A stretch of 44,420 bases of DNA from a virus (IMGVR_UViG_3300045988_035600:1-44420), one strand, 5' to 3'. Shown: positions 15,908 to 44,401, counted from the stretch's first letter. Translations and numbers: made by a program. Notes: generated by a model from the sequence alone, not told the origin.

Positions 15908-15935
15908 TCCCGGGGTACTATCCCCGGGAGTTTTT
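15908..15935. terminator. Terminator hairpin between the convergent int and lysin transcription units
   Basis: TCCCGGGG, tactat, CCCCGGGA, then gTTTTT on the plus strand. It abuts the lysin stop codon on the minus strand. Confidence 0.7.
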
Positions 15936-31676: not shown

Positions 31677-31946
31677 TCACTCTTTCATAATACTTTGCTT
31701 AATAATCTGATTCACACCAGTAGCCGACAATCCATTAAACATACCTACTGCAACTGCCGTGATATAATCCGTTGCCGGAAAATCCGGGATAATTCCCATT
31801 CCGACTGCTCCGAGAATCCCGCCAGTAACCGCCATGATCACCGGAATCCATTCATCAGAGATTCTTTTTGATGCCTTACAGCCCATTCCTACGATGTAGC
31901 AAATCATAACGATTGCTATACATGAGCCTAATGTTGTAATGTCCAT
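31677..31946 (-). CDS. Three-TM small membrane protein, holin-like
   Basis: The start is at MDITTLG after gaggtgataataATG. TM1 is followed by KASKRISDEWIPVIMAVTGGILGAVG and then AVAVGMFNGLSATGVNQIIKQ, which resembles Gram-positive phage holin families. Confidence 0.55.
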   Translation of the reverse strand: MDITTLGSCIAIVMICYIVGMGCKASKRISDEWIPVIMAVTGGILGAVGMGIIPDFPATDYITAVAVGMFNGLSATGVNQIIKQSIMKE

Positions 31947-31956
31947 TATTATCACC

Positions 31957-32812: not shown

Positions 32813-33982
32813 TTATGATTTCGCTGTTACGCTTGCACTTCCGGCGTTCAGTGCTTTGTATGTTCCATCGCACTCAACCACTGTAATCTTCTGTCCGGTT
32901 GCCGCTGTGATATCGGCTTTTCCATCCCAAGTGTTCCAGTTTCTGAGGTTCTGTCCATATCCAACAGTTACTGCGTCTGTTGCAACTTTGTATTTATATA
33001 CGTTGTTGGTATTTTCCTTAGCCGGTTTTACAGTGATTTTTGTGTCACCACTTGCTGTTCCAGCCACGGAATTTACTGTCAGAGTGCCAAGCGTTGGTGT
33101 TTCGTCAATGGTGATTACTGCGATTGCGTCAATGTATTCTGCAAAAAGAGTAAGACCCATGACCGCAAACGCCTCGGACACCGCTGTGTGGTAGTTGCCC
33201 TGAGTGTGGAATCCGATCAGGTTTGTCTCGCCAGATACAGTGTATACAAGCCCCGCTCTCGCAAAGTCAGATTCGTTAGGGTCTACATAATACAGAACAA
33301 TGTTCTCAACAGGTGTTGCAATAACCTGTCCTCTTGGAATCTCACTGTCAGATAACAGGAAGATTGTGTTGAATCCCATGAAATCTTTCATATACTGGAA
33401 ACCGAACTGATTCTGAATAGTAATCTCAGCCGCGCCGAGATATTCATATACATCCAGAATATTCACAAATCCAACAACGCCAGTCACATTTCTGTGCATC
33501 TGTTTAAATTTGTTCTCTACGCGACCCTTAGCCATTGCCAGAGCCATCTGGAATGTTGTTTCTGTGGAAGTAAGCGTACCGGTTTTCAGATAATCATAGA
33601 ATCTGCCGGTAACGTCAGTCTGAAGTTGGAAAAGGAATTCATCATCAGTCATCTGAACAGCGTTCTCATAACCGTGATCCTTGATTGCTTCGATAGATAC
33701 AGCCTTTGCGTACTTTTCAATAGTCATTTCCGCATAGGTCTTTTCTTTTACAGTAAACTTGCTGTAAGGGATTTCCTCACCCTCACCAACATTTCCGCTC
33801 TGCAAAGTACCCTCTGCGTATTTTGACTTGAGTACAGCACCCGGCTGTTTTTTGATAGGTCTCATGATGCCCAGAATATCACGTAAGTGCTGCCAGTTTC
33901 TTTCGAATCTGGTAACAAAGTCAATCTCACGTGCTGTGACCTGGATATCATTACTCATAATAAGATTAGCTTTTGCTGCCAT
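32813..33982 (-). CDS. Major capsid protein with a C-terminal Ig-like domain
   Basis: 389 aa directly after the scaffold gene. The C-terminal ~90 aa (TLTVNSVAGTASGDTKITVKP...GSASVTAKS) look Ig-like (Big_2-type). Confidence 0.85.
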   Translation of the reverse strand: MAAKANLIMSNDIQVTAREIDFVTRFERNWQHLRDILGIMRPIKKQPGAVLKSKYAEGTLQSGNVGEGEEIPYSKFTVKEKTYAEMTIEKYAKAVSIEAIKDHGYENAVQMTDDEFLFQLQTDVTGRFYDYLKTGTLTSTETTFQMALAMAKGRVENKFKQMHRNVTGVVGFVNILDVYEYLGAAEITIQNQFGFQYMKDFMGFNTIFLLSDSEIPRGQVIATPVENIVLYYVDPNESDFARAGLVYTVSGETNLIGFHTQGNYHTAVSEAFAVMGLTLFAEYIDAIAVITIDETPTLGTLTVNSVAGTASGDTKITVKPAKENTNNVYKYKVATDAVTVGYGQNLRNWNTWDGKADITAATGQKITVVECDGTYKALNAGSASVTAKS

Positions 33983-34062: not shown

Positions 34063-34695
34063 TCACTGGAATAACTGGATATTCTGAGCAATTGCAGCCT
34101 GTCTCTCGGACGGGTCTTTGATTGCTTCGATATCTTTCTTTGTCATGATTCCCGGTGTCTGTTGCTGTCCAACATGAGTAGTAAACCTTGCCTGATTCTG
34201 CTGAGCCTGTTGCTGAGATTCATCCACAAAAGCTGATGCGTCAGACTGTTTCATCTGCTCGATCAGGTCATTCAGTCCAAGGATTTTACCGTCTTTCAGC
34301 TTCAATCCTGCTTCCTTGATGTCTGCCATAACAGACTTCTTTGCAGCCTCACTGGAAAATTTAACATCATCAAGTGCTGTTTTAAGTGCGTCTGAGAAAT
34401 CGCGGTCATAAATCTTCGCATTAAATTCCTTCTCTGCGTCCTCCGCTTTTTTCTTCCATCCAGCAAGCTCTGTCTGAATGTTCGCCGGGTCGATGCCGTC
34501 AAAACCTTTTAGGGTCTCTTCTGCTGTCTCAGCACGTTCTTTCCAGTCATCACGTTCACTCTCGACTTTCGACAGAGTTTTCGCTACTTCTTTTGCGTTC
34601 TTATAATGCTCAGAGAGTGCTTTCTTCACATCTGCCTGTTTATCTTCCGGGATTTCAATTCCAAATGATTTTAATGTGTCAATAAGTTTCTGCAT
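34063..34695 (-). CDS. Scaffolding protein (Phage_GP20 type)
   Basis: Acidic coiled-coil protein, 210 aa. ...FNAKIYDRDFSDALKTAL..., ...LKDGKILGLNDLIEQMKQSD... Position before the capsid gene. Confidence 0.8.
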   Translation of the reverse strand: MQKLIDTLKSFGIEIPEDKQADVKKALSEHYKNAKEVAKTLSKVESERDDWKERAETAEETLKGFDGIDPANIQTELAGWKKKAEDAEKEFNAKIYDRDFSDALKTALDDVKFSSEAAKKSVMADIKEAGLKLKDGKILGLNDLIEQMKQSDASAFVDESQQQAQQNQARFTTHVGQQQTPGIMTKKDIEAIKDPSERQAAIAQNIQLFQ

Positions 34696-34772: not shown

Positions 34773-34844
34773 TTGGAAAGGCAGGAATCGAACCTGTGAC
34801 ACATAGCTTACAAGACTACTGCTCTACCACTGAGCTACATTCCA
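34773..34844 (-). tRNA. tRNA, anticodon UGU (Thr) by hand fold; no encoded CCA
   Basis: TGGAATG TA GCTC AGTGGTA GAGC A GTAGT CTTGTAA GCTAT GTGTC ACAGG TTCGATT CCTGC CTTTCCA A. U8, A14, G18G19, U33, A37 and TTCGA are all present. There is one T-T mismatch in the acceptor stem and an A-C at 49:65. Confidence 0.8.
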
Positions 34845-34865: not shown

Positions 34866-34990
34866 GCAAGGTATTTAACGTGTTATGCCTGCCACGAGTT
34901 GTTTCGGATATTTATTTCTTTTAAAAGAAAAGTATAAATAACAAAAACCTTAATCAAGGAGGTGAGCCATCTTGCGTGCCAGATGACAAA

Positions 34991-35039
34991 TGCGCACGGC
35001 AGGATTCGAACCTGTTTAACTTTCCATTAAAGCGTGCGC
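34991..35039 (-). ncRNA. 49-nt armless tRNA-like minihelix: acceptor stem, T-arm and a short hairpin
   Basis: GCGCACG C TTTaatggAAA GTTAA ACAGG TTCGAAT CCTGC CGTGCGC A. Perfect 7-bp acceptor stem and canonical T-loop. The D and anticodon arms are replaced by a 13-nt hairpin. Confidence 0.5.
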
Positions 35040-35170
35040 ACCAGCTACTAAATTAAAGAAAGGAGGATTAAAACGAAAATGTCAAAACAACCGTTTTACT
35101 TGTGCTTCCTGCTGCACAATTACATTATAACAGATTTATTTTAACTACCTCTCTACCACTTTTTGCGTTT

Positions 35171-35728
35171 TTAGAGCATATCGCGAAGTTTTTCCACGTA
35201 TCTCTTGACAAGATCACGTTCCTCCCGGCACTCCGCATCTTTAGACATATCGCTCATTTCTGTTGTGAGTTCGTCCAGATGTTCTTCCAGAGCGGCAAGC
35301 ATCTTCCTTTTGCAGTCTTCAGATTTGCCGGAACGATAGCTTTGCTTCTGCGTCATATAGTCATCGTAAGCATCTCGCCCATCAGAACGACTGTAATGCC
35401 CTCTGACGTAATGCTCGCCCCGTCTGGCATAAGAATTACCCCTGTCGTAATCTGGCATCATTCTGCCATCATTTGAGCTGTATCTCCCCATGCTATCACG
35501 CTTTCTTCCGCGTTCGCTGTAATCGTCATTGTATCCGCCACCACGCATCTCATCAAGAACAGTGTTGTAATATTCCACTTTCTTGTCCCAGTACTGCGTA
35601 TTCTTGATATCTTTGTACATATCAATCAGTTTGTATGTCATTTCCAGATTCCCGGTGGTCAGCCCATTGTCAGCTATTTTGGAAAGTTCATCTTCGATTC
35701 TTGCGCATAAGTCTTTAATATCTCTCAT
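35171..35728 (-). CDS. Helical protein with a central RG/Y/D-rich low-complexity region
   Basis: SD aggaggtgtgattATG. The centre reads GGGYNDDYSERGRKRDSMGRYSSNDGRMMPDYDRGNSYARRGEHYVRGHYSRSDGRDAYDDY and is flanked by helical segments. Confidence 0.75.
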   Translation of the reverse strand: MRDIKDLCARIEDELSKIADNGLTTGNLEMTYKLIDMYKDIKNTQYWDKKVEYYNTVLDEMRGGGYNDDYSERGRKRDSMGRYSSNDGRMMPDYDRGNSYARRGEHYVRGHYSRSDGRDAYDDYMTQKQSYRSGKSEDCKRKMLAALEEHLDELTTEMSDMSKDAECREERDLVKRYVEKLRDML

Positions 35729-35739
35729 AATCACACCTC

Positions 35740-36162
35740 CTACGCTTCTCTGGTTACGACAATGTTTGCGTTCGCAACAGAAACAGCCTGATCGCTTGTA
35801 TTCTCTACTGCGATGTTAACGCAACATCCACGAGGTACATCAATATAAATGCCAGAGGACACATTATTATACTGGTCTACTGCTGCCGGTGTGGAAATCA
35901 TCTGTGAAGATAATACAGGTTCGCCAGAGATTGCAATAGCCAGAGAAATAGCTCTGACAGTACCGCCCGTTGGAATTGCGATATTACCAGAAAAGTCCAC
36001 GAAAAATCTAGCTTTACACTGATTGGTTAAACCTCTCAGTGTAATGATTCCACTTCCCTCTCTGTGTTGAATACAGTTAGAACCTTTGACTGCTGTGCTT
36101 GAAAACACTACGTTTCCATTTGCTGCTACAGTCTGAGCAGCTACATTTGTAAATTCTGCCAT
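35740..36162 (-). CDS. C1q/TNF-like jelly-roll protein (BclA C-terminal-domain-like), no collagen stalk
   Basis: 140 aa. The pattern NVVFSSTAVKGSNCIQHREGSGIITLRG...ARFFVDFSGNIAIPTGG...AISLAIAISGEPV...VNIAVENTSDQAVSVANANIVV resembles BclA-CTD strand periodicity. SD gaaaggagtatttttATG. Confidence 0.55.
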   Translation of the reverse strand: MAEFTNVAAQTVAANGNVVFSSTAVKGSNCIQHREGSGIITLRGLTNQCKARFFVDFSGNIAIPTGGTVRAISLAIAISGEPVLSSQMISTPAAVDQYNNVSSGIYIDVPRGCCVNIAVENTSDQAVSVANANIVVTREA

Positions 36163-36184
36163 AAAAATACTCCTTTCATATCAC

Positions 36185-36208
36185 AAAAGGACAGGTCTCA
36201 GCCTGCCC
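36185..36208 (-). terminator. Intrinsic terminator inside the island
   Basis: Minus strand: GGGCAGG ctgaga CCTGTCC TTTTGTG (one G-U pair). Confidence 0.5.
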
Positions 36209-36273
36209 CTCTGTGTAATACGGCATAAGCCGACATCCGAAATCAATCGAAAGATACTCTCAATATGAAGTTA

Positions 36274-37053
36274 TCAGCAATTACATCCAGTGTTGCATCC
36301 GCATCCGTAATATGTGTTCGGATTAGGAACCTGATATGCCGGAATCGGCGCCGGATTAATCGCATTAATGAGCTGCTGTGTCTGTGAAGCCATTGCAGTT
36401 GTGAGAAGTGCGCTCTGGCGGTCCTGAGAAGCAGCACGTCTGAGGTCGTTATTTTCAGCCTGGAGATTGGAAATCTTCTCGTTGCACAGGTAATCAAGGA
36501 TTGCCCTTGTTCCGGCGTTCTGGCTGTCGATAATATCTCTAGTGTTGTTGTTCATGGTGTTCTGTAATGCACAGGTGTTCTGTGCCATGTTGTAGTTCAC
36601 GCCCTGGATAGCTTCTCTGGTTTCACAGCAGCAATTTGCAAGCTGAGACTGTAATGCGTTTGCGTTCTGCATATTAGCTACAGTATCGGCATTAATAGCC
36701 TGCTGGATGCCGAAACCAGTCTGCATGATGTTGGTGTTGATTCCATTGAATCCGGTAAGCATACCATTATTCATGGCATAGAAGCCATCGCACAGACCAC
36801 TGTTGATTCCGTCAAGCTTGCTAATCACTGCGGAATTGTCAAATCCTCTCTGAATGTCTGCCTGAGTAGCTGCTGTGGCTACATATCCGCCGCCGTTTCC
36901 ATTATTGCCCCATCCGTTGTTTCCCCATCCGAAGAAAGCAAAAATAAATAAAACAATAATCCACCAGCTGCCATCTCCACCAAACATGCCGTCATTATTT
37001 CTACCGTTTCCAGTAGCAGCGGCAATATCTGCTAAGCTATAATTTCCATCCAT
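36274..37053 (-). CDS. Single-pass membrane protein: G/N/W-rich juxtamembrane segment, N/Q-rich ectodomain with conserved Cys, C-terminal YYGCGCNTGCNC
   Basis: TM WWIIVLFIFAFFGWG, then NNGWGNNGNGGGY, ...LANCCCETREAIQG...NTCALQN...LDYLCNEK..., and the tail CGCNTGCNC. SD aaaggagattatattATG. Confidence 0.75.
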   Translation of the reverse strand: MDGNYSLADIAAATGNGRNNDGMFGGDGSWWIIVLFIFAFFGWGNNGWGNNGNGGGYVATAATQADIQRGFDNSAVISKLDGINSGLCDGFYAMNNGMLTGFNGINTNIMQTGFGIQQAINADTVANMQNANALQSQLANCCCETREAIQGVNYNMAQNTCALQNTMNNNTRDIIDSQNAGTRAILDYLCNEKISNLQAENNDLRRAASQDRQSALLTTAMASQTQQLINAINPAPIPAYQVPNPNTYYGCGCNTGCNC

Positions 37054-37105
37054 AATATAATCTCCTTTTTGTGTATTTACATCAATCTGGCCAGATTGTA
37101 ATGTA

Positions 37106-37327
37106 CTATTTCATTCCTTTCAACATGTGCTGGAATTGCCCTGCCATCTGTTGAACTTGATTGAGCTGCTGTTGAGAAATCTTTCCAGACTGCAACATTT
37201 TCTCGACTTCTGCTTTCGGATCTCCCTTAAAATTCTGTTTAAACTGCATAAACTGTTGTATCATCTGCATTGGTCCGTTTCCCTGCGGCATCCCGCCGCC
37301 AAGTGCGTTAAATAATGGATTACTCAT
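37106..37327 (-). CDS. Q/M-rich small protein (73 aa)
   Basis: MSNPLFNALGGGMPQGNGPMQMIQQFMQFKQNF...QQQLNQVQQMAGQFQHMLKGMK. The second ATG has the best SD spacing after agggagg. Confidence 0.65.
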   Translation of the reverse strand: MSNPLFNALGGGMPQGNGPMQMIQQFMQFKQNFKGDPKAEVEKMLQSGKISQQQLNQVQQMAGQFQHMLKGMK

Positions 37328-37790
37328 CTGCATTTCCTCCCTTGGTCGCTGATTCCTGTACGGTATTAGCCCTAACAGGTTCAGAAAATGAATTTAATCG
37401 GTTTATGATAACTTCGTATTTGCCTTTCAAATCATCGTATTCCTGTCGAGTAACATATTTACTGTCCATGTTCTGAACAGGCTGCTTAGGCGGCATCTGA
37501 GAACCTACCTCGTGGTATTCAAATGTCCGCAGTGGTTGTGGCATACCGGATACATCTGTGGATTTTATGTAGAACTTTTCACTTTCGCTGTCCATCAGCA
37601 AAACACTTGTCCCGGGTGCTACCAGATAGGATTTTGCGCCGACTTCGCCGGATACCCACAGGATACCGCTATTATTCTGCTGTGGTTGCTGTACTGGTTG
37701 AGCTGGAATCTGGACAGGCTGTTGCTGGAACTGGTTCATTTGCCCAGGGACGCCAAAGCTATATTGATAAGGATTATTATATAATGCCAT
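37320..37790 (-). CDS. Protein with a Q/P-rich N-terminus and a beta-rich core
   Basis: MALYNNPYQYSFGVPGQMNQFQQQPVQIPAQPVQQPQQNNSGILWVSGEVGAKSYLVAPGTSVLLMDSESEKFYIKS... SD aaaggcggtgtataagATG. Confidence 0.7.
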   Translation of the reverse strand: MALYNNPYQYSFGVPGQMNQFQQQPVQIPAQPVQQPQQNNSGILWVSGEVGAKSYLVAPGTSVLLMDSESEKFYIKSTDVSGMPQPLRTFEYHEVGSQMPPKQPVQNMDSKYVTRQEYDDLKGKYEVIINRLNSFSEPVRANTVQESATKGGNADE

Positions 37791-37867
37791 CTTATACACC
37801 GCCTTTCTGATTATATTTTTACACAGAAGTATTAAACTAAGAAGTTCAAAAAAGTATCAAAAAAGTA

Positions 37868-37899
37868 TTGACATATCACCCACTGAGTGGTATTATAAT
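37868..37899 (+). promoter_or_regulatory. Consensus sigma-70-type promoter with an embedded palindromic operator
   Basis: TTGACA (37868-73), 17 nt, TATTAT (37891-96), overlapping TATAAT (37894-99). The palindrome CCACTgAGTGG (37880-90) sits in the spacer. AAAAAGTAT occurs twice just upstream. Confidence 0.7.
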
Positions 37900-37942
37900 A
37901 TCAGAAACAGGGAAGAACAAAAAAATCAAGGAGGAAATAGAA

Positions 37943-38230
37943 ATGAAAATTAAAATTTATTGTAATTACGGTTGTTTATCGGCTGAAAAAAGAAACGTTT
38001 ACACATATGGATTCCCAGAAGCCACAGCTACTTGCTGGGACGAAATGACAGTGGAAGTCCCGGAAGGCTGGGAAGTGTTCGAAAATTCCATGGGAAGCTT
38101 AATGGTAACATCTCCTTGGGGCTTTGTTTACGTGATAAATGAAGTACTTCAGGGCAACGAAAAACCATGCTTTTATGCATTAGATAAAAACATGAACGGA
38201 CACCGCCAGTATTTAAAAGTTTTGGATTGA
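37943..38230 (+). CDS. Small hypothetical protein (95 aa), first gene of the plus-strand operon
   Basis: SD caaggaggaaatagaaATG, MKIKIYCNYGCLSAEKRNVYTYGFPEATATCWDEM... Confidence 0.7.
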   Translation: MKIKIYCNYGCLSAEKRNVYTYGFPEATATCWDEMTVEVPEGWEVFENSMGSLMVTSPWGFVYVINEVLQGNEKPCFYALDKNMNGHRQYLKVLD

Positions 38231-38247
38231 TAGGAGGAATAAAAAAA

Positions 38248-38481
38248 ATGATAAAATTAAACACATCATCTTACGTTTACGGGCAGAACGACACAATAGA
38301 GGTCGGAGAGGAATACTATTTCGGTCAGCTCTGGGACGGTGACGGGGACGGCGAAGAACTGATAGAGTCTGAAGCAATCGCCATATATCAGGACGGCGAG
38401 GAATATATTGTTGACTTCGAGATTTTGGAGTCTGCGGAGGATATTTTACAAACCCGAGTTAAGGTTACCGGGATTAACTAG
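38248..38481 (+). CDS. Small, very acidic protein (77 aa)
   Basis: SD taggaggaataaaaaaaATG. About 19 D/E against 3 K/R by hand count (WDGDGDGEELIESEA...). Confidence 0.7.
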   Translation: MIKLNTSSYVYGQNDTIEVGEEYYFGQLWDGDGDGEELIESEAIAIYQDGEEYIVDFEILESAEDILQTRVKVTGIN

Positions 38482-38492
38482 GAGGCAGGAAA

Positions 38493-38708
38493 ATGAAGTA
38501 TATAATTATGGATTATACAGACGGTGATTGTTTCACCGATGAATTTGAGAACAAAGAAGAAGCCCTTCAGGAAGCGGATGAACAATGGGAGCATCTAACA
38601 AGGTGCGAAAAGAAACACAGATCGGAGTTTTACGTGCTGGAAAGCATCAATCCGGACGAGGACACGCCCGATCATTACGACGGAGGCATTGTGAAGCGTT
38701 GGAAATAA
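38493..38708 (+). CDS. Small acidic protein (71 aa)
   Basis: SD taggaggcaggaaaATG. About 20 D/E against 9 K/R. Confidence 0.7.
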   Translation: MKYIIMDYTDGDCFTDEFENKEEALQEADEQWEHLTRCEKKHRSEFYVLESINPDEDTPDHYDGGIVKRWK

Positions 38709-38730
38709 AAAGAAGAAAGAAAGGAACAAT

Positions 38731-38898
38731 ATGAACATCAAAGAAATTAGATTAATTTCCGGGTTAAGCCAGCAGGCTTTTTCCGATAAATACAAAATTC
38801 CCAAAAGGACAATTGAAAACTGGGAAGGCGGTAAAAGAAATCCACCAGAATACGTAATTTTATTGCTTGAAAGAGCTGTAAAAGAAGATTTTGCATAA
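38731..38898 (+). CDS. Mini HTH regulator (55 aa, XRE/MqsA-like HTH), hand-called
   Basis: MNIKEIRLISGLSQQAFSDKYKIPKRTIENWEGGKRNPPEYVILLLERAVKEDFA. SD gaaaggaacaatATG. Below the track cutoff. Confidence 0.7.
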   Translation: MNIKEIRLISGLSQQAFSDKYKIPKRTIENWEGGKRNPPEYVILLLERAVKEDFA

Positions 38899-38902
38899 AA
38901 AG

Positions 38903-38929
38903 AAGGAGGGGTAAATTGCCTCTCCTTTT
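38903..38929. terminator. Bidirectional terminator between the plus-strand operon and the convergent minus-strand gene
   Basis: AAGGAGGGG taaattg CCTCTCCTT with T-runs on both strands. Confidence 0.55.
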
Positions 38930-39128
38930 AGCATACTTTTATAATCTTACTGTTTACTCTTCTGCTTAATCTCTTTACGGTAGATATGCTCACATTCATC
39001 TGTTCAGCACAGTATTCGAGCGTATATTCCTTGCATCTCAGCCGGAACAGTCTTTCTTCGTCCGGTGTGAAATTACACTCTATCAAGAATCTGTCTATAT
39101 CTTTCTTCGTGAACACATATAATTTCAT
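38928..39128 (-). CDS. Small sigma-70 region-4-like HTH protein
   Basis: ...TPDEERLFRLRCKEYTLEYCAEQMNVSISTVKRLSRRVNSKI... The start is at the second ATG after aagggg. Confidence 0.6.
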   Translation of the reverse strand: MKLYVFTKKDIDRFLIECNFTPDEERLFRLRCKEYTLEYCAEQMNVSISTVKRLSRRVNSKIIKVC

Positions 39129-39148
39129 GAGCATACCCCTTACTAATG

Positions 39149-39454
39149 CTAACGTTGATTCTGCGCAAGATAATTTGTAAGTTTCTGTTTTGTTTTTTTT
39201 AATTCTTCTACATTATTCCCACTAATCTGACTATCCAACATGGTTGATAGCACTTCCAAAATCAATGAATCACGTTCCGCGATCCTCTGAAGACTCTCAA
39301 AGTCACGCTTATCATGTTCTTCCAGTGTCTCAACTCGTTTGTTGAGTCGAAATGCCGGAGTAATCCACTTAAAGATTACGGCTGCCGCGCCTCCGACAAT
39401 GGATATCCCTCCGCAGATAGAGAGGAAGATCTGTACAAATTCTGATATGCTCAT
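39149..39454 (-). CDS. N-terminally anchored membrane protein with a coiled-coil
   Basis: TM FVQIFLSICGGISIVGGAAAVIF, then a charged helical region. SD aaaggagtagctaaATG. Confidence 0.7.
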   Translation of the reverse strand: MSISEFVQIFLSICGGISIVGGAAAVIFKWITPAFRLNKRVETLEEHDKRDFESLQRIAERDSLILEVLSTMLDSQISGNNVEELKKTKQKLTNYLAQNQR

Positions 39455-39458
39455 TTAG

Positions 39459-39842
39459 CTACTCCTTTTCCCAGTAGTATACCGGGATTTCATTACCACT
39501 ATCCCATGTATCGTAATATTTGCCATTCTGTACCGTCACTACGTGTCCATCTATACAGAGAATGTATGTGCCTGTCGGATGGTCTGTGCAAAAGTCGTTG
39601 ACTGTATAGATATATCGTTCTGATTGTTCAATCAGCTTGCGTCTGTACCCACGTTTATAGAGGTACGCTCCCCAGACATAATTTGCACTTGGCATATCTG
39701 ACAAAGCGCACGCCTGTACCATTAATCCGGCGAATACTGTTTCCCAGTCGAAACCGGTTGCCTTGCATATTGCCCGGACAACGCAATCTCCTGTTCTCTT
39801 ATCCTTAACGGGATTCGGATTATAATATTCCCATCTATCCAT
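39459..39842 (-). CDS. Putative papain-like cysteine peptidase-fold protein
   Basis: NPNP...RTGDCVVRAI (Cys20) ... ILCIDGHVVTV (His100) ... YYDTWDS. ATGA-coupled to the minor capsid gene. Confidence 0.45.
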   Translation of the reverse strand: MDRWEYYNPNPVKDKRTGDCVVRAICKATGFDWETVFAGLMVQACALSDMPSANYVWGAYLYKRGYRRKLIEQSERYIYTVNDFCTDHPTGTYILCIDGHVVTVQNGKYYDTWDSGNEIPVYYWEKE

Positions 39843-41071
39843 CAGTCAATCCCCTTTGCTGTTTTATATCTCTTTGCCGCTCCTCTGGCTTTTGCGGCGT
39901 TCCGACGATTCCACTTAGCGATCATGAGCCGGTCTTGCAGCTCTCTTAGATCATTGTCTTTGCAGTAAGCCTTGTATGCAGCATTTTGTTTCTGCAAAAG
40001 ATAAGACTTCCGGTCAAGGTCTTGTTGTAATGCGAATTTTGTCTGTTCGTCCTTGCAGTTATCAACCGCCGCTTGCATTCCAAGGACTTCTCGCTTCGTT
40101 TTACGGATTCTTCGTTCATAAGTACGTTGTCGTTGTTCCTTTTCGTACTGTTTGCCTTTGTTGGCTTTATCCTGTGCTGATAGTTCTGCATAGGGGTTAA
40201 ATTCCCCGTCACTTGCCCCAAAACTATGCCGGCAGTTGACCCCTGACAGTCCACTCGCCGTTCCATATCCGGTCAATGAGAACGGCGGAAATTTCTTACT
40301 CTTGCCAGAGCGAGAGTATATCTTGCCTTGCCACCATGCGTGATTTCCCGGATTCTCGCCGCCGTCACCTGTTCTGGCTCCCATGTGAGCACTGACCAGA
40401 ACTAAATCCCAGCCCATTTCTTCCATGCGTTTGAGGGATATATCTCCAGTAGCCTGAGCCACGCCAGTTCTGACAGAACGTGCGACTGCTGTTTCGATCG
40501 TGTCTTTTCTGCCAGATGGATATGTGACCGTAACGCCATCACTCACAACGTTATTAACTGCCTCTTTGATGGCTTGCGTATACCCAACCGCCCCAGTCAT
40601 TACATGATTATAGGCAAGGTCGCATTGCTCAATATAGAGCCTCTGAGCGGCACTTGCAGTTGTTCTTGTGAAGTTCTTCCACTCTCCCATAGTCGCAAGC
40701 ATATTTCGCTCCATGAGTCTTATCATAGCTGGTGACTGTTCGAGCGGTACAGGGCTTAATCCTGCCGCCTTATATACCTTATCATCATAGTTCATTGCAG
40801 TGATTCCTGCATCTTCAAACGCTTCAAGAAGTTCCTGCTGTTCACGTTTGGTATATTTGGATAATTCTGCCAGAATGTCCTCTAGCAGTTCACCGGATTC
40901 CTGCAGTGTTCTGATCCTCCACGCATCGGCATTGGTCAGAATATAATCCTCACCTCTGCCAATTCTTGCCATCATTCTCGACACAATCTCAGAGATGATG
41001 TACTGATGCAGTTCTTCTACTATCTGTTCACTGCCCTCTGTAATTTGCCGTAAATATTCTGGGCTTAACAT
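39842..41071 (-). CDS. Minor capsid / head morphogenesis protein (Phage_min_cap2 / MuF-like)
   Basis: 409 aa directly after the portal gene. ...VSAHMGARTGDGGENPGNHAWWQGKIYS... Basic coiled-coil C-terminus. Confidence 0.75.
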   Translation of the reverse strand: MLSPEYLRQITEGSEQIVEELHQYIISEIVSRMMARIGRGEDYILTNADAWRIRTLQESGELLEDILAELSKYTKREQQELLEAFEDAGITAMNYDDKVYKAAGLSPVPLEQSPAMIRLMERNMLATMGEWKNFTRTTASAAQRLYIEQCDLAYNHVMTGAVGYTQAIKEAVNNVVSDGVTVTYPSGRKDTIETAVARSVRTGVAQATGDISLKRMEEMGWDLVLVSAHMGARTGDGGENPGNHAWWQGKIYSRSGKSKKFPPFSLTGYGTASGLSGVNCRHSFGASDGEFNPYAELSAQDKANKGKQYEKEQRQRTYERRIRKTKREVLGMQAAVDNCKDEQTKFALQQDLDRKSYLLQKQNAAYKAYCKDNDLRELQDRLMIAKWNRRNAAKARGAAKRYKTAKGID

Positions 41072-41073
41072 AA

Positions 41074-42519
41074 CTATTCATCTCCAAACAATTTTGGTTC
41101 GTCTGGCTGAGCTTCTTTGACCATTGCTTTCGCTTCGGATTCTGTCATATTTTCGAATTTGACATAATACATCCAAGGAGGACAGTCACCCTGTAAGCGA
41201 TACTTCCACCAATTGTCTCGGTCTCTCTCATAAGAATATGCCATTTCGCCAAAGTTGCACTGAACTTTATATGCACCGACTGGGGCCAATCCATATAAAT
41301 CTGCATATACGCTCAACGCATATACTACTTGTTTTATGCTTTTGTCTAATTGGTCTCTTACGTCCTTGATAAATTGTACAGACCTCTGTTGCCCTGCTTC
41401 TACCTCTGTGGCTGTTTGTATTCCGCTTTTTTCATTAAATACAAAATATCCATTAGAGAATCCGACCTTATATCCAATCTGTCCAAGGAGGGCATTTATG
41501 CCGCTTATACGGGTATCTGTGTTGAGTATCGGATTTATTTCCTGATAAAACTCTTTTTCATCTTGTCCGAATACATTCTTGACAAAATGCGGTAAGCTCA
41601 TCTCATTACGTCTGTTCTCCATGCCCTGTGGCGACATGGCTGATACAGGTGCACCGCTTGGCATCAGCAGTCTATCATCTGCCAGAACAATCTTCTGAGA
41701 ATCAAAAATCTCTCCGACGTTTCTGCTGTATGCAATATCGAGGTCTTTTAACTCTTCGATAGCTTCGGCAAATATTGGCAAACCCAATGGTGCGTTAATA
41801 TCCACGTTATTTGCCTGTGGTGTCCGTAGAACTCCGTACAGAGGTCCGTCCAGCTTCTCGCCGTTTGCCTTGAGTATCGGCGGCGTATCTACCATTAGGT
41901 CAGCCCATTTGGTCTGTTTAAGGTCAATCTTGTCTCCGATCGACTGAGGGGATTTTGATACATAGGCTCTGTTTGAAACATAGTACGGATAAGTTGTCAC
42001 ACCATCTATTGTAGTCTCAGCAAAACGATGATATTCAAGCCGTGTATAATATTTCCTTTCAACCGTATAAGAGTCCTTGAATATAATCCCTTTGATTTTC
42101 TGATTATCATAATCCACAATCATCACATCTGCCGGAGTAAATACGTCAAGACTCTCGCCGTTTGGTTTGATAAATACTGTTCCGTAAGCACAGCCGTATT
42201 CTACCCAGTGACGGATCTGGAAATACACCTTGTCAATCTGCTCCTGCAACCATGCTGCCCTTGCAGAGCCGTCAATCTGAATGCCGATCGCCAATGTTGC
42301 AAGTCTGGCAGTCTCGGAGCAGACGGATTTAGCAAAATTAATCGTCTTGATGTTATTTTTATCATCTAACCAGTATGGAACGCCTCGATATATGTTTGCA
42401 CATTTATTAATCAACGATTCCATCTCTGGGAACTCTGCTGCCTGGATATTAAAATCCTCTTCGGCTTGTTTTTTGAAAATCATGTTAAACCACCTTTTTA
42501 GTGTTGTTATAAGTCCCAT
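41074..42519 (-). CDS. Portal protein (SPP1 gp6-like)
   Basis: 481 aa, in the position after terL. An alternative start MIFKKQ at 42483 has SD aaaggtggtttaacATG. Confidence 0.85.
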   Translation of the reverse strand: MGLITTLKRWFNMIFKKQAEEDFNIQAAEFPEMESLINKCANIYRGVPYWLDDKNNIKTINFAKSVCSETARLATLAIGIQIDGSARAAWLQEQIDKVYFQIRHWVEYGCAYGTVFIKPNGESLDVFTPADVMIVDYDNQKIKGIIFKDSYTVERKYYTRLEYHRFAETTIDGVTTYPYYVSNRAYVSKSPQSIGDKIDLKQTKWADLMVDTPPILKANGEKLDGPLYGVLRTPQANNVDINAPLGLPIFAEAIEELKDLDIAYSRNVGEIFDSQKIVLADDRLLMPSGAPVSAMSPQGMENRRNEMSLPHFVKNVFGQDEKEFYQEINPILNTDTRISGINALLGQIGYKVGFSNGYFVFNEKSGIQTATEVEAGQQRSVQFIKDVRDQLDKSIKQVVYALSVYADLYGLAPVGAYKVQCNFGEMAYSYERDRDNWWKYRLQGDCPPWMYYVKFENMTESEAKAMVKEAQPDEPKLFGDE

Positions 42520-42684: not shown

Positions 42685-43941
42685 TTATGCACTGTGCCCC
42701 CTTCTCATGGACAATGGACTGGTTGCGTATCTGAGAGAATCTATCCAGTGATCGTTGCCATCTGGATAATCTGCAATCACTTCTCCATTGCTATCTACTT
42801 CATGCTCATAATTGATAATTTCCTTGTATGCTCTAGGTGTTCGTGTCGGATCAATAACTAATGTTCGGCACTGTAACCACTCAAAAGTATATTTGCGGCT
42901 TCCCGGTGTAACAATGGCCCTACGCGCTGGAAGCCCTGCATCTCGGAAGTCAATAATGCTTTCTTCTTCATCAACTCCGCAAGATATTGAATAATCATCA
43001 TATCCCTTTTGTTTTATCTGGCCAGCCATTACTGTATTTCGGATTTTGCAACCGCCAAGCTCATCTAGTAGGATAACTTTGTCCTGATTAGGCACATAAG
43101 CCACACGAATAAATGCTTTCGGATCTGGATACCACCCCCAGTCCTGTCCCTGGTAGATACTTTGAAAGCTCTGAATCTCTTCATCTGTAATTTCTCGAAT
43201 TTCTAACAGTTCGAAAATATTTGTGCCAAGTCCAACAGGAAGGCCAAGATATTCATGGTCGTAAGCTCTCTGATTTGTCTTTCTCAAATGCTCCGCATCA
43301 TCAAGGAATTGTTGACCAAGCCATTCAACAGGAACTGATCTGTAATCGCTCTTATGCCTGTAGCTGTCGTCTCGTGGCTCTTCTACATACACATTCGCCC
43401 AGTTGCTCCGGCTAATTGGCGGATTGAATGTCTTAAATACAACAAACTTACTGCCACCTCGAAGAACTGACTGTTGCACTGTACGAATTTCTTCAATGCC
43501 CGAAAATTCGTCAAGTTCCTCGAACCAGAGATACTTGAAATATCCCTTGCTTGCTTTAATAGATTTAGTCTTTTTTGCCTTGTCCAGTCCTCTGAATATG
43601 ATTTTCTGTCCAGTAGGCTTATAAATGTACTGCATAGGGCTTACGCTGGTATCCCATAGTTCATTGACTCCGAGCGCGTCAATTCCCCATGCTATCTGTT
43701 CGTAAACGGATTCTCTAAGTGTGTTTCCAACTTTACGGAAAATAACGGTATTTGACATTATACCGTTCTCTGTGTCCTGCATCATCAGGAAAGGAATCAT
43801 GACACCCACAAAAGATGATTTAGTAGATCCACGCCCACCATACAAATCATAATAGGTGTGTTTTCCGTCCAAAATGTCCCAGAACACATTGTAAAAGGCA
43901 GGAGCTATAATTTCATTCAGATTAATCGGATTCTCATTCAT
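42685..43941 (-). CDS. terL: Terminase large subunit (PBSX/Terminase_3 type)
   Basis: Walker A YGGRGSTKSS, Walker B YLWFEELDE, nuclease half ...QGQDWGWYPDP... 418 aa. Confidence 0.9.
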   Translation of the reverse strand: MNENPINLNEIIAPAFYNVFWDILDGKHTYYDLYGGRGSTKSSFVGVMIPFLMMQDTENGIMSNTVIFRKVGNTLRESVYEQIAWGIDALGVNELWDTSVSPMQYIYKPTGQKIIFRGLDKAKKTKSIKASKGYFKYLWFEELDEFSGIEEIRTVQQSVLRGGSKFVVFKTFNPPISRSNWANVYVEEPRDDSYRHKSDYRSVPVEWLGQQFLDDAEHLRKTNQRAYDHEYLGLPVGLGTNIFELLEIREITDEEIQSFQSIYQGQDWGWYPDPKAFIRVAYVPNQDKVILLDELGGCKIRNTVMAGQIKQKGYDDYSISCGVDEEESIIDFRDAGLPARRAIVTPGSRKYTFEWLQCRTLVIDPTRTPRAYKEIINYEHEVDSNGEVIADYPDGNDHWIDSLRYATSPLSMRRGHSA

Positions 43942-43942
43942 T

Positions 43943-44401
43943 CTATTTCTCCGGCCTTGGAATATTATTTACAATCGTAATCTTTCCATCTCCAGAATCA
44001 TCATTTTTCTTGTCAGCATCCCATCCCTTAAAATTATTTCTCAAGCTGAACTGAGCGCCATTTGAACCGTCACGATCAAATAGCCTTTCCTCTGCGTACT
44101 GTTCCACTCTGGCTTTCGCGCGCGTAATCGTGTCAACAAACTCTGGTTTTGCTTGATAGTTTAAAAGAGCCTGTCTGCTTGTAAATCCAAGGGCCAGAGC
44201 AAGTCCTGTAACGGTCGGAGGGTGAACGTCTACGAAAACGGGAGATCCAAATTTATTAAACATTTGTTTTCCTTTGCTATCAGTTAAAGGATATCCTTTA
44301 CAATCCTTAAAATATTTTTCGATTTTTTTTTCAATTTCATCCACCGTTTTATACATGGGCGGTTTTCCCATTGGCATTCCCACATTCTCACCTCCAGACA
44401 T
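43943..44401 (-). CDS. terS: Terminase small subunit
   Basis: ...HPPTVTGLALALGFTSRQALLNYQ... is the HTH typical of Terminase_2-type TerS. An internal SD ggaggtgag suggests the true start may be the GTG at 44383 or the ATG at 44377. Confidence 0.8.
   Translation of the reverse strand: MSGGENVGMPMGKPPMYKTVDEIEKKIEKYFKDCKGYPLTDSKGKQMFNKFGSPVFVDVHPPTVTGLALALGFTSRQALLNYQAKPEFVDTITRAKARVEQYAEERLFDRDGSNGAQFSLRNNFKGWDADKKNDDSGDGKITIVNNIPRPEK

What the first reader, a model, noticed from the sequence alone, without database searches (positions are those of the whole stretch)
35171..37790. Island of five low-complexity or atypical proteins between the head-morphogenesis genes and the tRNA/scaffold/capsid genes
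The co-oriented genes, in transcription order, are as follows. First, a protein with a Q/P-rich N-terminus and a beta-rich core. Second, a 73-aa Q/M-rich protein. Third, a membrane protein with a G/N/W-rich segment, an N/Q-rich ectodomain and a Cys-studded tail. An internal terminator follows (36185-36208). Fourth, a C1q/BclA-CTD-like protein. Fifth, a helical protein with an RG/Y/D-rich disordered centre. None resembles standard virion components. The compositional themes (Q/N-rich, RG/Y-rich, Cys-rich, C1q-like trimer fold) recall spore-surface and exosporium proteins or condensate-forming proteins. As a set inside a late operon they may form a previously undescribed surface, decoration or compartment system.
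Basis: partly seen in the sequence, partly recalled or inferred. Interest (0 to 1): 0.7.

Follow-up and report, generated by a model that had tools for sequence, protein, structure and literature searches.

The report
Mobile phage cassette of unknown function
The five odd genes are real, strongly conserved, and form the core of an eight-gene cassette that moves between thousands of gut viruses, yet matches no known system, so a very common piece of phage biology remains unexplained.

Summary
Five co-oriented minus-strand genes (g1-g5) have the stated compositions and are under purifying selection as strong as the scaffold and capsid genes (pN/pS 0.01-0.08).

The island is incomplete. It is the distal part of an eight-gene module: papain-like Cys peptidase, TM/coiled-coil protein, sigma70-region-4-like regulator, then g1-g5. 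In 63 of 100 close relatives the module is contiguous. The window carries a rare insert inside it.

The hallmark is g3, with a hydrophobic Gly/Trp-flanked segment, long helices, a near-invariant CCC, PxPAY and a Cys-rich C-terminus. It has 3201 clusters at 50% identity and no Pfam domain or informative name. It occurs in phages of Firmicutes, in crAss-like and Bacteroides phages, and in Methanomassiliicoccales viruses.

g4 is BclA_C/C1q-like: 11 of 25 family members hit PF18573, and the profile hits the F-BclA C-terminal domain.

The module's position varies and is usually at the end of the late operon. Near-identical C. perfringens phages lack it, so it is accessory. A hairpin after g3 recurs in 22 of 29 diverse loci.

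Best reading, at low confidence: a self-contained, membrane-anchored stalk-and-knob assembly made late in infection. The spore or exosporium analogy fails on host range. Function is unknown. Both AlphaFold models were of low confidence.

The parts
39459..39842 (-). pap: a 127-aa papain-like Cys peptidase candidate (phrog_3754). It is the first gene of the module in this lineage.
   Evidence: D19, C20, H100, D111, W113 and S115 are invariant in 25 diverse homologues. It lies in the cassette neighbourhood (within 6 kb of g3) in 76 of 112 loci. There is no Pfam or PDB match. pN/pS is 0.087.
39149..39454 (-). tmcc: a 101-aa protein with an N-terminal hydrophobic segment followed by coiled coil.
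   Evidence: It has a TM-like segment at residues 2-20. It is found in the cassette neighbourhood (within 6 kb of g3) in 25 of 112 loci. pN/pS is 0.042. There is no family match.
38928..39134 (-). sig4: a 68-aa sigma-70 region-4-like HTH protein, the candidate regulator of the cassette.
   Evidence: Pfam Sigma70_r4 scores E = 5e-4, below the curated cutoff, and phrog_1190 scores 2e-6. It lies in the cassette neighbourhood (within 6 kb of g3) in 85 of 112 loci, and it is listed first or just ahead of pap and g1 in the commonest orders.
37868..38898 (+). A variable insert of four small plus-strand genes, including an XRE-type HTH. It interrupts the module and is not part of it.
   Evidence: It is present in only 3 of 118 close relatives. 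In 63 of 100 relatives sig4 and g1 are about 90-100 nt apart.
37800..37869 (-). Region upstream of g1: two exact tandem copies of ATACTTTTTTGA (37846-37869), a third ATACTT copy, and TATAAT. This is a candidate operator and promoter.
   Evidence: The sequence is shown. The tandem pair is the only match with 0 or 1 mismatch on this strand of the window; one other 1-mismatch site lies on the plus strand at 6853-6865. Similar tandem repeats lie upstream of the cassette in L195 and L261. Function is inferred.
37320..37790 (-). g1: 156 aa, with a Q/P-rich N-terminus, a conserved beta-rich core (WVxGExGAKSY...DSE...Y(I/L)KS.D..GMP) and a C-terminal helix.
   Evidence: phrog_21718 scores 3.4e-38. The alignment is A4. 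It is found in 101 of 112 loci. pN/pS is 0.081. There is no PDB match.
37106..37327 (-). g2: 73 aa, rich in Q, M and G, overlapping the end of g1.
   Evidence: phrog_22984 scores 5.2e-27. It is found in 64 of 112 loci, which is probably an undercount because the protein is short and divergent. pN/pS is 0.059.
36274..37053 (-). g3: the 259-aa hallmark protein. It has a conserved N-terminal peptide ending in FGG, a hydrophobic segment, a Gly/Asn/Trp segment, long helices, CCC, ASQ, PxPAY and a Cys-rich C-terminus.
   Evidence: phrog_16490 scores 5.5e-58. Invariant residues are in A2 and A6. CCC is present in 210 of 213 homologues. The family has 3201 clusters at 50% identity. pN/pS is 0.026. The AlphaFold2 model is of low confidence and shows helices at 30-41, 74-111 and 124-232.
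36182..36215 (-). A 14-bp GC-rich hairpin ending in UUUUGUG, between g3 and g4. It is a candidate attenuator or partial terminator.
   Evidence: z = -4.8. Comparable hairpins, often followed by T-runs, occur in 22 of 29 diverse loci that have a g3-g4 spacer of 25-260 nt.
35740..36162 (-). g4: a 140-aa all-beta protein of the BclA_C / C1q-TNF-like family.
   Evidence: phrog_20016 scores 1e-60. Of 25 diverse family members, 11 hit Pfam PF18573 BclA_C, best E 4.4e-7. The family profile hits PDB 9H38, the F-BclA C-terminal domain, at E = 0.002. Foldseek top hits of the low-confidence model are TNF-family ligands, C1q and 9H38, but E is at least 2.5e-3. pN/pS is 0.040.
35171..35734 (-). g5: 187 aa, with helical ends flanking an R/G/Y/D/S-rich centre. 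The family motif is SYARGRG..RRDSMGRYS.
   Evidence: phrog_28802 scores 9.8e-65. The alignment is A9. It is found in 80 of 112 loci. There is no Pfam or PDB match.

Best explanation
The five genes are the distal part of a widespread eight-gene accessory cassette of gut viruses that moves horizontally: pap, tmcc, sig4, then g1-g5.

I think it builds a self-contained stalk-and-knob protein assembly in the infected cell, held by a hydrophobic anchor rather than by any particular virion.
- g3 supplies the anchor (its hydrophobic Gly/Trp-flanked segment), a long helical stalk and a Cys-rich C-terminal docking end. The hairpin after g3 means it is made in excess over what follows.
- g4 is a C1q/BclA_C-like head, presumably a trimer, that caps or decorates the stalk.
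- g1 (beta core plus C-terminal helix), g2 (Met/Gln-rich, possibly shielding the hydrophobic segment) and g5 (helical ends with an RG/Y-rich linker) are adaptors or assembly factors.
- The small Cys peptidase matures a component.
- The sigma-r4-like protein drives the cassette's own promoter.

The likely site of action is the cytoplasmic membrane late in infection, for an envelope-level task such as egress or lysis support, or exclusion.

Shown: gene reality, conservation, synteny, mobility, dispensability, the g4 fold family and the recurrent hairpin. Inferred: every physical interaction, the membrane location, the topology, the stoichiometry and the biological role.
For: - Reality and constraint: pN/pS is 0.01-0.08, like the scaffold and capsid protein.
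- Module: the orders sig4-pap-g1-g2-g3-g4-g5 (30 loci), tmcc-sig4-pap-... (15) and the window's order (8) are the three commonest among 112 loci. The module is contiguous in 63 of 100 close relatives.
- Portability: g3 occurs in siphovirus-like Firmicutes phages, crAss-like and Bacteroides phages and archaeal viruses, with at least 7996 clusters at 90% identity and 3201 at 50%. It is almost absent from plasmids.
- Position: the cassette sits after endolysin or holin genes, after tail-fibre genes or inside head modules. Downstream lie integrases, repressors, dUTPase and RuvC. That pattern suits a self-contained unit, not a part fitted to one capsid or tail.
- Dispensability: C. perfringens phages 17DYC and XP41-N3 carry g1-like, g2-like, g3 and a beta partner. 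The isolated phage phiCP13O is 90-98% identical over the aligned flanks and lacks them; phiCP34O, 9O, 26F and 39-O cover a similar fraction of the region and gave no g3 match.
- Anchor and stalk: a hydrophobic 15-mer, helices at 74-111 and 124-232 (low confidence) and a near-invariant CCC and Cys-rich end.
- Head: BclA_C/C1q-like.
- Peptidase partner in two unrelated chemistries: a Cys-His-Asp protein in Firmicutes cassettes and an HExxH protein in 66 of 75 Bacteroidota-type loci.
- Excess of g3: a hairpin follows g3 in 22 of 29 loci that have a spacer.
- Own control region: tandem repeats and TATAAT before g1.
- None of g1, g2, g4 or g5 has a hydrophobic N-terminus.
Against: - No interaction, localisation or expression data exist.
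- Both AlphaFold2 models were of low confidence (pLDDT 46.6 and 45.1).
- The hydrophobic segment of g3 is short (about 14 residues) and lacks the positively charged flank of a classical membrane anchor. It may not span a membrane.
- In this window, in Dulem virus 35, in cr116_1 and in contig L426 the cassette sits among head or head-to-tail genes. That also fits a virion accessory.
- Partners of g3 in Bacteroidota phages show no detectable homology to g1, g4 or g5, so the 'same machine' argument rests on analogy.
- A canonical holin and an endolysin exist elsewhere in the window, so no lysis role is needed.
Confidence: 0.33

Rival explanations
1. A dispensable virion accessory: a knobbed fibre, or an ejected membrane-penetration protein. 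g3 would be a trimeric coiled-coil shaft with a hydrophobic end that inserts into the host membrane at infection. g4 would be the TNF-like knob. g1, g2 and g5 would be assembly chaperones, and the peptidase would mature the shaft inside the particle.
For: - The cassette is co-oriented with, and embedded in, late structural operons. In the window it lies between the minor head protein and the scaffold. In cr116_1 it lies just before the scaffold and capsid genes. In L426 it lies between head and fibre genes. In Dulem virus 36 it directly follows the receptor-binding protein.
- The upstream census includes tail-fibre and baseplate domains.
- The lack of signal peptides fits assembly in the cytoplasm.
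- Depositors annotated crAss-like homologues as 'viral fiber' or 'spike'.
- From my own knowledge, a coiled-coil shaft plus TNF-like knob is the plan of several viral fibres (Sf6 tail needle, PRD1 P5).
- Foldseek also returned cyanophage tail-fibre domains.
Against: - The same cassette occurs in unrelated virion architectures and at many genome positions. That is hard to reconcile with a specific docking site on a capsid or tail.
- It is swapped out between near-identical C. perfringens phages, inside a region of small early-type genes and antirepressors.
- g4 shows purifying, not diversifying, selection.
- No PHROG structural category was assigned.
Confidence: 0.22
2. A protease-activated membrane-remodelling or lysis accessory. 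After cleavage at the conserved FGG motif, g3 would expose a Gly-rich hydrophobic peptide followed by long helices and a Cys cluster, and would act on the membrane at egress. This resembles class I fusion proteins and spanins.
For: - Endolysin and holin domains are the commonest neighbours upstream of the cassette. Holin-like small TM proteins travel with it (tmcc; Dulem virus 35 genes at L163 4147-4879).
- A peptidase partner is conserved in two chemistries.
- The Gly/Trp-rich hydrophobic segment has no charged flanks.
- Its universality across monoderm, diderm and archaeal hosts points to the lipid membrane as the target.
Against: - There is no second membrane anchor and no lipoprotein partner.
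- The probable host is a monoderm (Lachnospira), where spanins are not needed.
- The window already has a canonical holin and an endolysin.
- Adjacency to lysis genes may only reflect the end-of-operon spot where accessory genes accumulate, next to integrases and early genes.
- Only a subset of crAss-like phages carries g3.
Confidence: 0.15
3. A superinfection-exclusion or defence module carried as phage cargo, acting at the membrane of the infected or lysogenic cell against other phages.
For: - The cassette has an accessory, presence/absence distribution and lies next to integrases and repressors.
- It has its own regulator and upstream repeats.
- A hydrophobic anchor plus coiled coil recalls some membrane defence proteins. 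There is a weak PADLOC hit to the ZorA tail (E = 0.0038).
- The spacer inside the cassette is itself a hot spot for insertions.
Against: - There is no significant PADLOC match and no nuclease, ATPase, NTPase or other effector domain.
- The cassette is co-transcribed in sense with late genes, upstream of the scaffold and capsid genes, in this phage.
- It is present in crAss-like phages and in a phage observed only in lytic growth.
- The low-complexity composition suggests structural material rather than a sensor and effector.
Confidence: 0.1
4. One reading: a spore-surface or exosporium-like or condensate-forming layer, a lysogenic conversion linked to sporulation.
For: - g4 is related to BclA_C, and the PDB hit is the tip fibrillum of an endospore appendage.
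- Cys-rich, Q-rich and RG/Y-rich compositions resemble coat and exosporium proteins.
- A small HTH regulator and a Cys peptidase accompany the cassette.
Against: - g3 occurs in phages of Bacteroides, Methanomassiliicoccales and Butyrivibrio.
- No spore-coat or exosporium model in NCBIfam or Pfam matched.
- g4 has no collagen-like stalk and no exosporium leader.
- The partner sets change between lineages.
Confidence: 0.05

Closest known systems
BclA / F-BclA C-terminal domain (Pfam PF18573; C1q-TNF superfamily), the head of the exosporium nap and of the endospore-appendage tip fibrillum (PDB 9H38; PMC12357932)
   Same: The g4 family shares detectable sequence similarity with it (11 of 25 members hit PF18573; the profile hits 9H38 at E = 0.002). 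It has the same size (about 135-150 aa) and is all-beta. Like BclA, g4 lacks a signal peptide and would fold in the cytoplasm.
   Different: g4 is a stand-alone domain with no collagen-like stalk and no exosporium leader. The window protein itself does not reach any Pfam threshold. It is encoded by phages of non-sporulating hosts. Trimerisation was not tested.
Viral knobbed fibres with a coiled-coil shaft and a TNF-like or jelly-roll knob (Sf6 tail needle, PRD1 P5, adenovirus fibre, reovirus sigma1). This comparison comes from my own knowledge.
   Same: The overall plan may be the same if g3 (long helices) and g4 (TNF/C1q-like) associate. Depositors labelled crAss-like g3 homologues 'viral fiber' or 'spike'.
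   Different: The shaft and knob would be separate polypeptides. g3 starts with a very hydrophobic segment and carries CCC and Cys-rich motifs. The cassette is not tied to any one virion type and is dispensable. There is no sequence match to any fibre in the PDB.
Spanins and the T4-type class III holin (one N-terminal TM followed by a large, Cys-containing, helix-rich domain). This comparison comes from my own knowledge.
   Same: The architecture of g3 is similar, it is frequently adjacent to lysis genes, and it is co-oriented with late genes, so late expression is likely though untested.
   Different: There is no lipoprotein partner. The host is probably a monoderm. A canonical holin and an endolysin are present elsewhere. 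g3 is far more conserved than holins usually are, and it travels with four to seven partner genes.
Cargo loci with a dedicated sigma-like regulator and a holin-like protein (UviA/UviB-bacteriocin, TcdR/TcdE-toxin loci of clostridia). This comparison comes from my own knowledge.
   Same: A small sigma-r4-like gene and a TM/coiled-coil gene precede a block of cargo genes that lack signal peptides.
   Different: sig4 has only region 4 (68 aa), so it is not a full sigma factor. tmcc matches no holin family. The cargo has no toxin or bacteriocin domain.

Membership tests
BclA_C / C1q-TNF superfamily (g4) | Sequence match of the protein itself to PF18573 or PF00386 at or above the curated threshold | tested here: not met
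   The window g4 protein matched 0 Pfam families at E <= 1.
BclA_C / C1q-TNF superfamily (g4) | Family-level homology: relatives of g4 match the family model or a solved member | tested here: met
   Of 25 diverse homologues, 11 match PF18573 (best E 4.4e-7) and 1 matches C1q. Profile A3 matches 9H38, the F-BclA C-terminal domain, at E = 0.002.
BclA_C / C1q-TNF superfamily (g4) | Compact beta jelly-roll fold | tested here: inconclusive
   The AlphaFold2 model is all-beta but has pLDDT 46.6. Foldseek top hits are 4-1BBL, RANKL, CD40L, C1q and 9H38, but no hit has E <= 1e-3 and TM-scores are at most 0.48.
BclA_C / C1q-TNF superfamily (g4) | Homotrimer | not testable with these tools
   No multimer prediction was available.
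BclA-type exosporium glycoprotein | N-terminal exosporium leader and a collagen-like GXY stalk before the head | tested here: not met
   g4 is 140 aa and consists of the domain only. The alignment shows no GXY repeats.
   g3 occurs in Bacteroides, crAss-like, Methanomassiliicoccales and Butyrivibrio viruses. There were no NCBIfam or Pfam coat hits.
Spanin (i-spanin/o-spanin or u-spanin) | N-terminal TM plus a coiled-coil domain | tested here: inconclusive
   g3 has a hydrophobic segment at 30-44 and predicted helices at 74-232, at low confidence. The segment has no charged flank.
Spanin (i-spanin/o-spanin or u-spanin) | A lipoprotein partner or lipobox, and a diderm host | tested here: not met
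   No neighbouring gene has a signal sequence or lipobox. The closest prophages are in Lachnospira and other Lachnospiraceae.
Holin | A small TM protein encoded next to the endolysin, with a match to a holin family | tested here: not met
   No holin family matched g3. The endolysin is at 15934-17304, and a two-TM holin-like gene is at 31677-31955.
Known anti-phage defence systems (PADLOC) | A significant match of any cassette protein to a PADLOC model | tested here: not met
   The only hit was g3 against the coiled-coil tail of ZorA2 at E = 0.0038 (14 bits). The other six proteins had none.
Virion structural or decoration protein | A fixed place in the structural module and presence in all close relatives | tested here: not met
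   The position varies. phiCP13O, which is 90-98% identical over the aligned flanks, lacks the cassette, and four further close relatives gave no g3 match.
Virion structural or decoration protein | Detected in purified particles | not testable with these tools
   No proteome was found for a cassette-bearing isolate.
Papain-like / C39-like cysteine peptidase (pap) | Conserved Cys, His and Asp in the canonical order | tested here: met
   D19-C20, H100 and D111 are invariant in 25 sequences.
Papain-like / C39-like cysteine peptidase (pap) | A sequence or profile match to a peptidase family or solved structure | tested here: not met
   There is no Pfam peptidase family and no PDB hit. hhalign against a Peptidase_C39_2-type neighbour gave probability 0.9%.
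Class I viral fusion protein | A Gly-rich hydrophobic peptide, heptad helices and a C-terminal TM anchor | tested here: not met
   The first two features are resembled. There is no C-terminal hydrophobic anchor; the protein ends in GCGCNTGCNC. The PDB spike hit has E = 4.8.

The most novel reading that the evidence does not exclude
g3 and its partners are a previously unrecognised machine shared by viruses of Firmicutes, Bacteroidota and methanogenic archaea in animal guts. It would be a protease-matured, Cys-crosslinked or metal-locked stalk anchored in the host membrane and capped by a TNF/C1q-like head. It would carry out a step of the infection cycle not yet described, such as membrane remodelling at egress or tethering of progeny or DNA. 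This would make phrog_16490 a new hallmark gene of gut viruses.
Probability: 0.15. Interest if true: 0.85.

Novelty: categorically new. Interest (0 to 1): 0.62.

Why it matters
The hallmark protein has more than 3000 clusters at 50% identity and at least 8000 at 90%. It sits in some of the most prevalent human-gut phages: hundreds of near-identical IMG/VR contigs for this phage alone. It crosses from bacterial to archaeal viruses. Yet it has no Pfam domain, no PHROG function and no mention in the searchable literature, and in crAss-like genomes it is mislabelled 'spike glycoprotein' or 'viral fiber'.

The cassette is as constrained as the capsid genes but is dispensable and mobile. That suggests a strong, context-dependent fitness function in the gut.

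Cultured phages already exist for testing it. These include natural cassette-plus and cassette-minus pairs that infect Clostridium perfringens, Butyrivibrio phage Ceridwen, and a Lachnospira intestinalis prophage. Defining the cassette would also improve annotation of thousands of viral genomes.

Tried and rejected
- AlphaFold2 on g4 (22-sequence alignment) and on g3 (28 sequences). Both gave pLDDT of about 45, so no fold argument rests on them. Foldseek on the g4 model is reported only as weak support.
- Profile searches of g1, g3, g5, pap and the alternative beta partner against PDB sequences. They returned only coiled-coil or chance hits.
- Pfam, NCBIfam and PADLOC on the five proteins. Nothing matched.
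- Pfam on alternative partners from other lineages. Nothing matched.
- hhalign between Firmicutes-type partners (g1, g4, g5, pap) and Bacteroidota-type partners. No relationship was found (at most 20% probability, on a coiled-coil helix only). I therefore do not claim homology of the whole module across phyla. Only g3 and a DUF-like helical protein (the c3_133 family) are shared.
- g3 as the phage's holin. Rejected, because a canonical two-TM holin and a CHAP-type endolysin exist elsewhere.
- Spanin. Rejected for lack of a lipoprotein partner and because the host is probably a monoderm.
- pap as a C39_2 peptidase. Not supported.
- RiPP or bacteriocin precursor, suggested by the Cys-rich C-terminus and the GG motif. 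Considered from memory only. No modification enzymes or transporter are in the cassette, so I dropped it.
- Literature searches for the PHROG and DUF identifiers and for the cassette-bearing isolates. They gave nothing on these genes.
- A genome-contig scan with the alignment failed. The single-protein scan returned only 17 loci.

Full report
**1. What is there**

The window is a temperate siphovirus-like genome of about 44 kb. On the minus strand it reads as follows.
- small terminase 43943-44401
- large terminase 42685-43941
- portal 41074-42519
- minor head protein (Phage_min_cap2) 39842-41071
- three small genes, then four plus-strand genes
- the five genes of the finding
- tRNA-Thr 34773-34844
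- scaffold 34063-34695
- major capsid protein 32813-33982

An integrase-like gene lies at 14423-15604. A CHAP-type endolysin lies at 15934-17304, and a two-TM holin-like gene at 31677-31955.

- g1 starts at the ATG at 37790.
- g2 starts at the second ATG, 37327, which gives 73 aa.

The compositions match the description. The hairpin at 36182-36215 is real (z = -4.8).

**2. The genes are real and constrained**

None of the five has a Pfam, NCBIfam or PADLOC match. All five fall in PHROG families of unknown function with E values from 5e-27 to 1e-65.

The phage is very common in human-gut data. Across those relatives 261 of 262 unique full-length copies are intact, with one g2 copy interrupted. 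pN/pS is 0.081 for g1, 0.059 for g2, 0.026 for g3, 0.040 for g4 and 0.012 for g5. The scaffold is 0.042 and the capsid protein 0.065.

**3. The unit is larger than five genes**

I ran iterative profile searches over ORFs of 166 diverse loci plus the window. Among the 112 loci with at least 3.5 kb on both sides, counts were as follows.

| Component | Loci of 112 |
|---|---|
| g1 | 101 |
| sigma70-r4-like gene (sig4) | 85 |
| g4 | 81 |
| alternative Cys-rich beta protein in place of g4 | 24 |
| g5 | 80 |
| papain-like gene (pap) | 76 |
| g2 | 64 |

The commonest gene orders were:
- sig4-pap-g1-g2-g3-g4-g5 in 30 loci
- tmcc-sig4-pap-g1-g2-g3-g4-g5 in 15 loci
- the window's order, pap-tmcc-sig4-g1...g5, in 8 loci

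The window homologues of pap, tmcc and sig4 are 39459-39842, 39149-39454 and 38928-39134.

Among close relatives, sig4 and g1 are only about 90-100 nt apart in 63 of 100. The other 37 carry inserts of 0.5-1.95 kb at that spot. The window's plus-strand insert (37868-38898) is found in 3 of 118 relatives. So the window holds one eight-gene module interrupted by a rare insertion.

**4. The hallmark is g3**

A tblastn search with g3 finds 50 phage records:
- human faecal phages and lemur and rodent gut viruses
- five C. perfringens phages
- Butyrivibrio phage Ceridwen
- crAss-like phages, where it is annotated 'spike protein/glycoprotein' or 'outer capsid protein/viral fiber'
- Bacteroides phage C3_41T2LP

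The crAss-like homologue also reaches two Methanomassiliicoccales viruses, in which the gene carries the phrog_16490 label.

The alignment keeps these features:
- an N-terminal peptide ending in (F/W)GG
- the hydrophobic segment
- WGGNGWGNG
- CCC
- ASQ
- PxPAY
- a C-terminal GCxC

Across 213 distinct homologues, CCC is present in 210 and the mean is 11.5 Cys per protein. The flanks of the hydrophobic segment have almost no K/R, 0.53 on the N side and 0.35 on the C side.

It has 3201 clusters at 50% identity at E <= 1e-3. Most of the best 150 are 170-310 aa, the longest 399 aa, with no obvious large fusions. It is nearly absent from plasmids.

The closest prophages are in Lachnospira intestinalis (78%) and an uncultured Lachnospiraceae genome (85%).

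**5. Partners**

g4. The window protein alone hits nothing. Of 25 diverse family members, 11 hit Pfam BclA_C, with best E 4.4e-7. The family profile hits PDB 9H38 at E = 0.002. That entry is the C-terminal C1q-like head of the F-BclA tip fibrillum of Bacillus endospore appendages (PMC12357932). Foldseek on the low-confidence model returns TNF-family ligands, C1q and 9H38, but no hit with E <= 1e-3. Trimerisation is untested.

pap. It keeps an invariant D-C...H...D pattern but has no family or PDB match.

g1, g2 and g5. No match anywhere.

Bacteroidota-type loci. Here g3 is followed by a beta-rich protein, a beta-plus-coiled-coil protein, a helical protein (the c3_133 family) and a small HExxH protein. 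The HExxH gene is present in 66 of 75 loci. These partners are not detectably homologous to g1, g4, g5 or pap. The c3_133 family, however, replaces g5 in some Firmicutes-type cassettes. A peptidase therefore accompanies g3 in two unrelated chemistries.

**6. Position and dispensability**

I took a Pfam census of the three genes upstream of the cassette in 41 diverse loci.
- Lysis domains: CW_7, GH25, CHAP, NlpC/P60, Amidase_2 and _3, M23, glucosaminidase, and two holin families.
- Tail-fibre or baseplate domains: Sipho_Gp37, Gp10_C, Dit.
- Phage_min_cap2: only three members.

The downstream census found dUTPase, RuvC, SNF2 helicases, integrases or resolvases, HTH repressors and only two scaffolds. 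The usual site is thus the end of the late operon, at the junction with early or lysogeny genes. The head-module site in the window is a minority arrangement.

In C. perfringens phages the cassette is polymorphic. 17DYC, XP41-N3, CPD1, HMD-PC1 and PMQ04 carry g1-like, g2-like, g3 and the alternative beta protein. phiCP13O is 90-98% identical over the aligned flanks but has a different segment in their place, and it keeps only the last helical gene. phiCP34O, 9O, 26F and 39-O cover a similar fraction of the region and gave no g3 match. Those are isolated, plaque-forming phages. So, at least in that lineage, the core genes are not needed to build particles or to grow lytically.

**7. Regulation signals**

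A strong hairpin, often followed by a T-run, lies directly after g3 in 22 of the 29 diverse loci that have a 25-260 nt spacer. In 26 other loci g3 and the next gene nearly abut. I read this as attenuation that keeps g1-g3 in excess over g4-g5. That is an inference.

Upstream of g1 the window has two exact tandem copies of ATACTTTTTTGA, a third ATACTT and a TATAAT. The tandem pair is the only match with 0 or 1 mismatch on that strand of the window. Similar or different tandem repeats precede the cassette in other lineages. That is consistent with a cassette-specific operator for the small HTH protein, but it is untested.

Because the plus-strand insert separates g1 from the upstream genes, g1-g5 must start from this region. 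Unless another promoter lies in the 330-nt spacer before the tRNA, the same transcript would feed the scaffold and capsid genes. That is also an inference.

**8. Interpretation**

The facts that constrain any model are these.
- The genes are as constrained as capsid genes.
- The module moves among unrelated virion types and among hosts with quite different envelopes.
- It is accessory.
- Four of the five proteins lack any export signal.
- g3 has a hydrophobic segment, a long helical region and conserved Cys motifs.
- One partner is a C1q/TNF-like head domain.
- A peptidase and a small regulator travel with the cassette.

The reading I favour, at confidence 0.33, is a self-contained stalk-and-knob assembly. 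It would be anchored by the hydrophobic segment of g3 to the one structure all these hosts share, the cytoplasmic membrane. It would be made late and in quantity.

A dispensable virion fibre or ejection protein remains a serious rival (0.22). The cassette is always in sense with late genes and sometimes sits inside head or tail modules. A protease-activated membrane or lysis accessory (0.15) and an exclusion or defence role (0.10) are narrower versions that I cannot separate. The spore or exosporium reading (0.05) fails on host range.

**9. Novelty**

Nothing in Pfam, NCBIfam, PHROG annotation, PADLOC, PDB sequences or the searchable literature describes this cassette. Only g4 can be placed in a known fold family. 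I therefore rate it as lying outside the known kinds of phage systems. I stress that the function is unknown and that the mechanism above is inference.

Noticed in passing
window 37868-38898 (+) and the sig4-g1 spacer: The spacer between sig4 and g1 is an insertion hot spot. It is about 90-100 nt long in 63 of 100 close relatives and carries inserts of 0.5-1.95 kb in 37. The window's insert has four small plus-strand genes, including an XRE-type HTH at 38731-38898 and two very acidic proteins. It occurs in only 3 of 118 relatives.
   Followed up: partly
window 35079-35144 (+): A 21-codon plus-strand ORF (MSKQPFYLCFLLHNYIITDLF) has a strong AAAGGAGG ribosome-binding site and lies in the g5-tRNA spacer. 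It is kept in at least 65 relatives, including variants with an in-frame two-codon deletion. It may be a small hydrophobic peptide gene.
   Followed up: partly
window ~34990-35045 (-): A tRNA-like remnant lies about 150 nt upstream of tRNA-Thr. It has a 7-bp acceptor-like stem plus a GGTTCGAATCC T-arm. ARAGORN and Rfam do not call it, and its fold z-score is only -1.65. The g5-tRNA spacer is fully present in only 50 of 118 relatives.
   Followed up: partly
window 37846-37869 (-): Two exact tandem copies of ATACTTTTTTGA are the only 0- or 1-mismatch matches on this strand; one other 1-mismatch site lies on the plus strand at 6853-6865. They overlap the divergent promoter region, whose plus-strand TTGACA-17-TATTAT lies at 37868-37896. 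Similar tandem repeats precede the cassette in L195 and L261.
   Followed up: partly
L429 (C. perfringens phage vB_CpeS-17DYC) 4455-7359 against L430 (phiCP13O): There is a natural presence/absence polymorphism of the cassette core between isolated phages that are 90-98% identical over the aligned flanks. phiCP13O keeps only the truncated 132-aa gene and the 175-aa helical gene. In phage CPQ4 the g3 match is split into two places, so the gene may be disrupted.
   Followed up: partly
L344 (vir215) 4878-5759; L345 (vir335) 4860-5783: g3 homologues labelled phrog_16490 occur in viruses assigned to Methanomassiliicoccales. They sit next to a tail protein and, in vir215, next to a reverse transcriptase that suggests a diversity-generating retroelement.
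   Followed up: no
window 32813-33982 (-): The major capsid protein carries a C-terminal S-layer SbsC_C, Ig-like domain (residues 306-387, E = 9e-17). The capsid therefore already has a built-in surface domain.
   Followed up: no
window 31677-31955 (-) and 15934-17304 (-): The holin-like two-TM gene sits among the head-tail joining genes, about 14 kb from the CHAP-type endolysin at the end of the late operon. Dulem virus 35 has a holin annotated at the equivalent place.
   Followed up: no
L339-L342, L336 and the Bacteroidota-type loci: A helical family with the motif NADGT.G.HW...NMMYSDY...D.DA..GK is shared by Firmicutes-type and Bacteroidota-type cassettes. It is the c3_133 family and is probably Pfam DUF7841, which appeared five times in the downstream census. 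Apart from g3, it is the only partner shared between the two types.
   Followed up: partly
L330 (Devosia alba contig, 299 nt): A 299-nt contig in a Devosia alba assembly encodes the g3 C-terminus at 98% identity. This is most likely contamination of that assembly with human-gut phage DNA.
   Followed up: no
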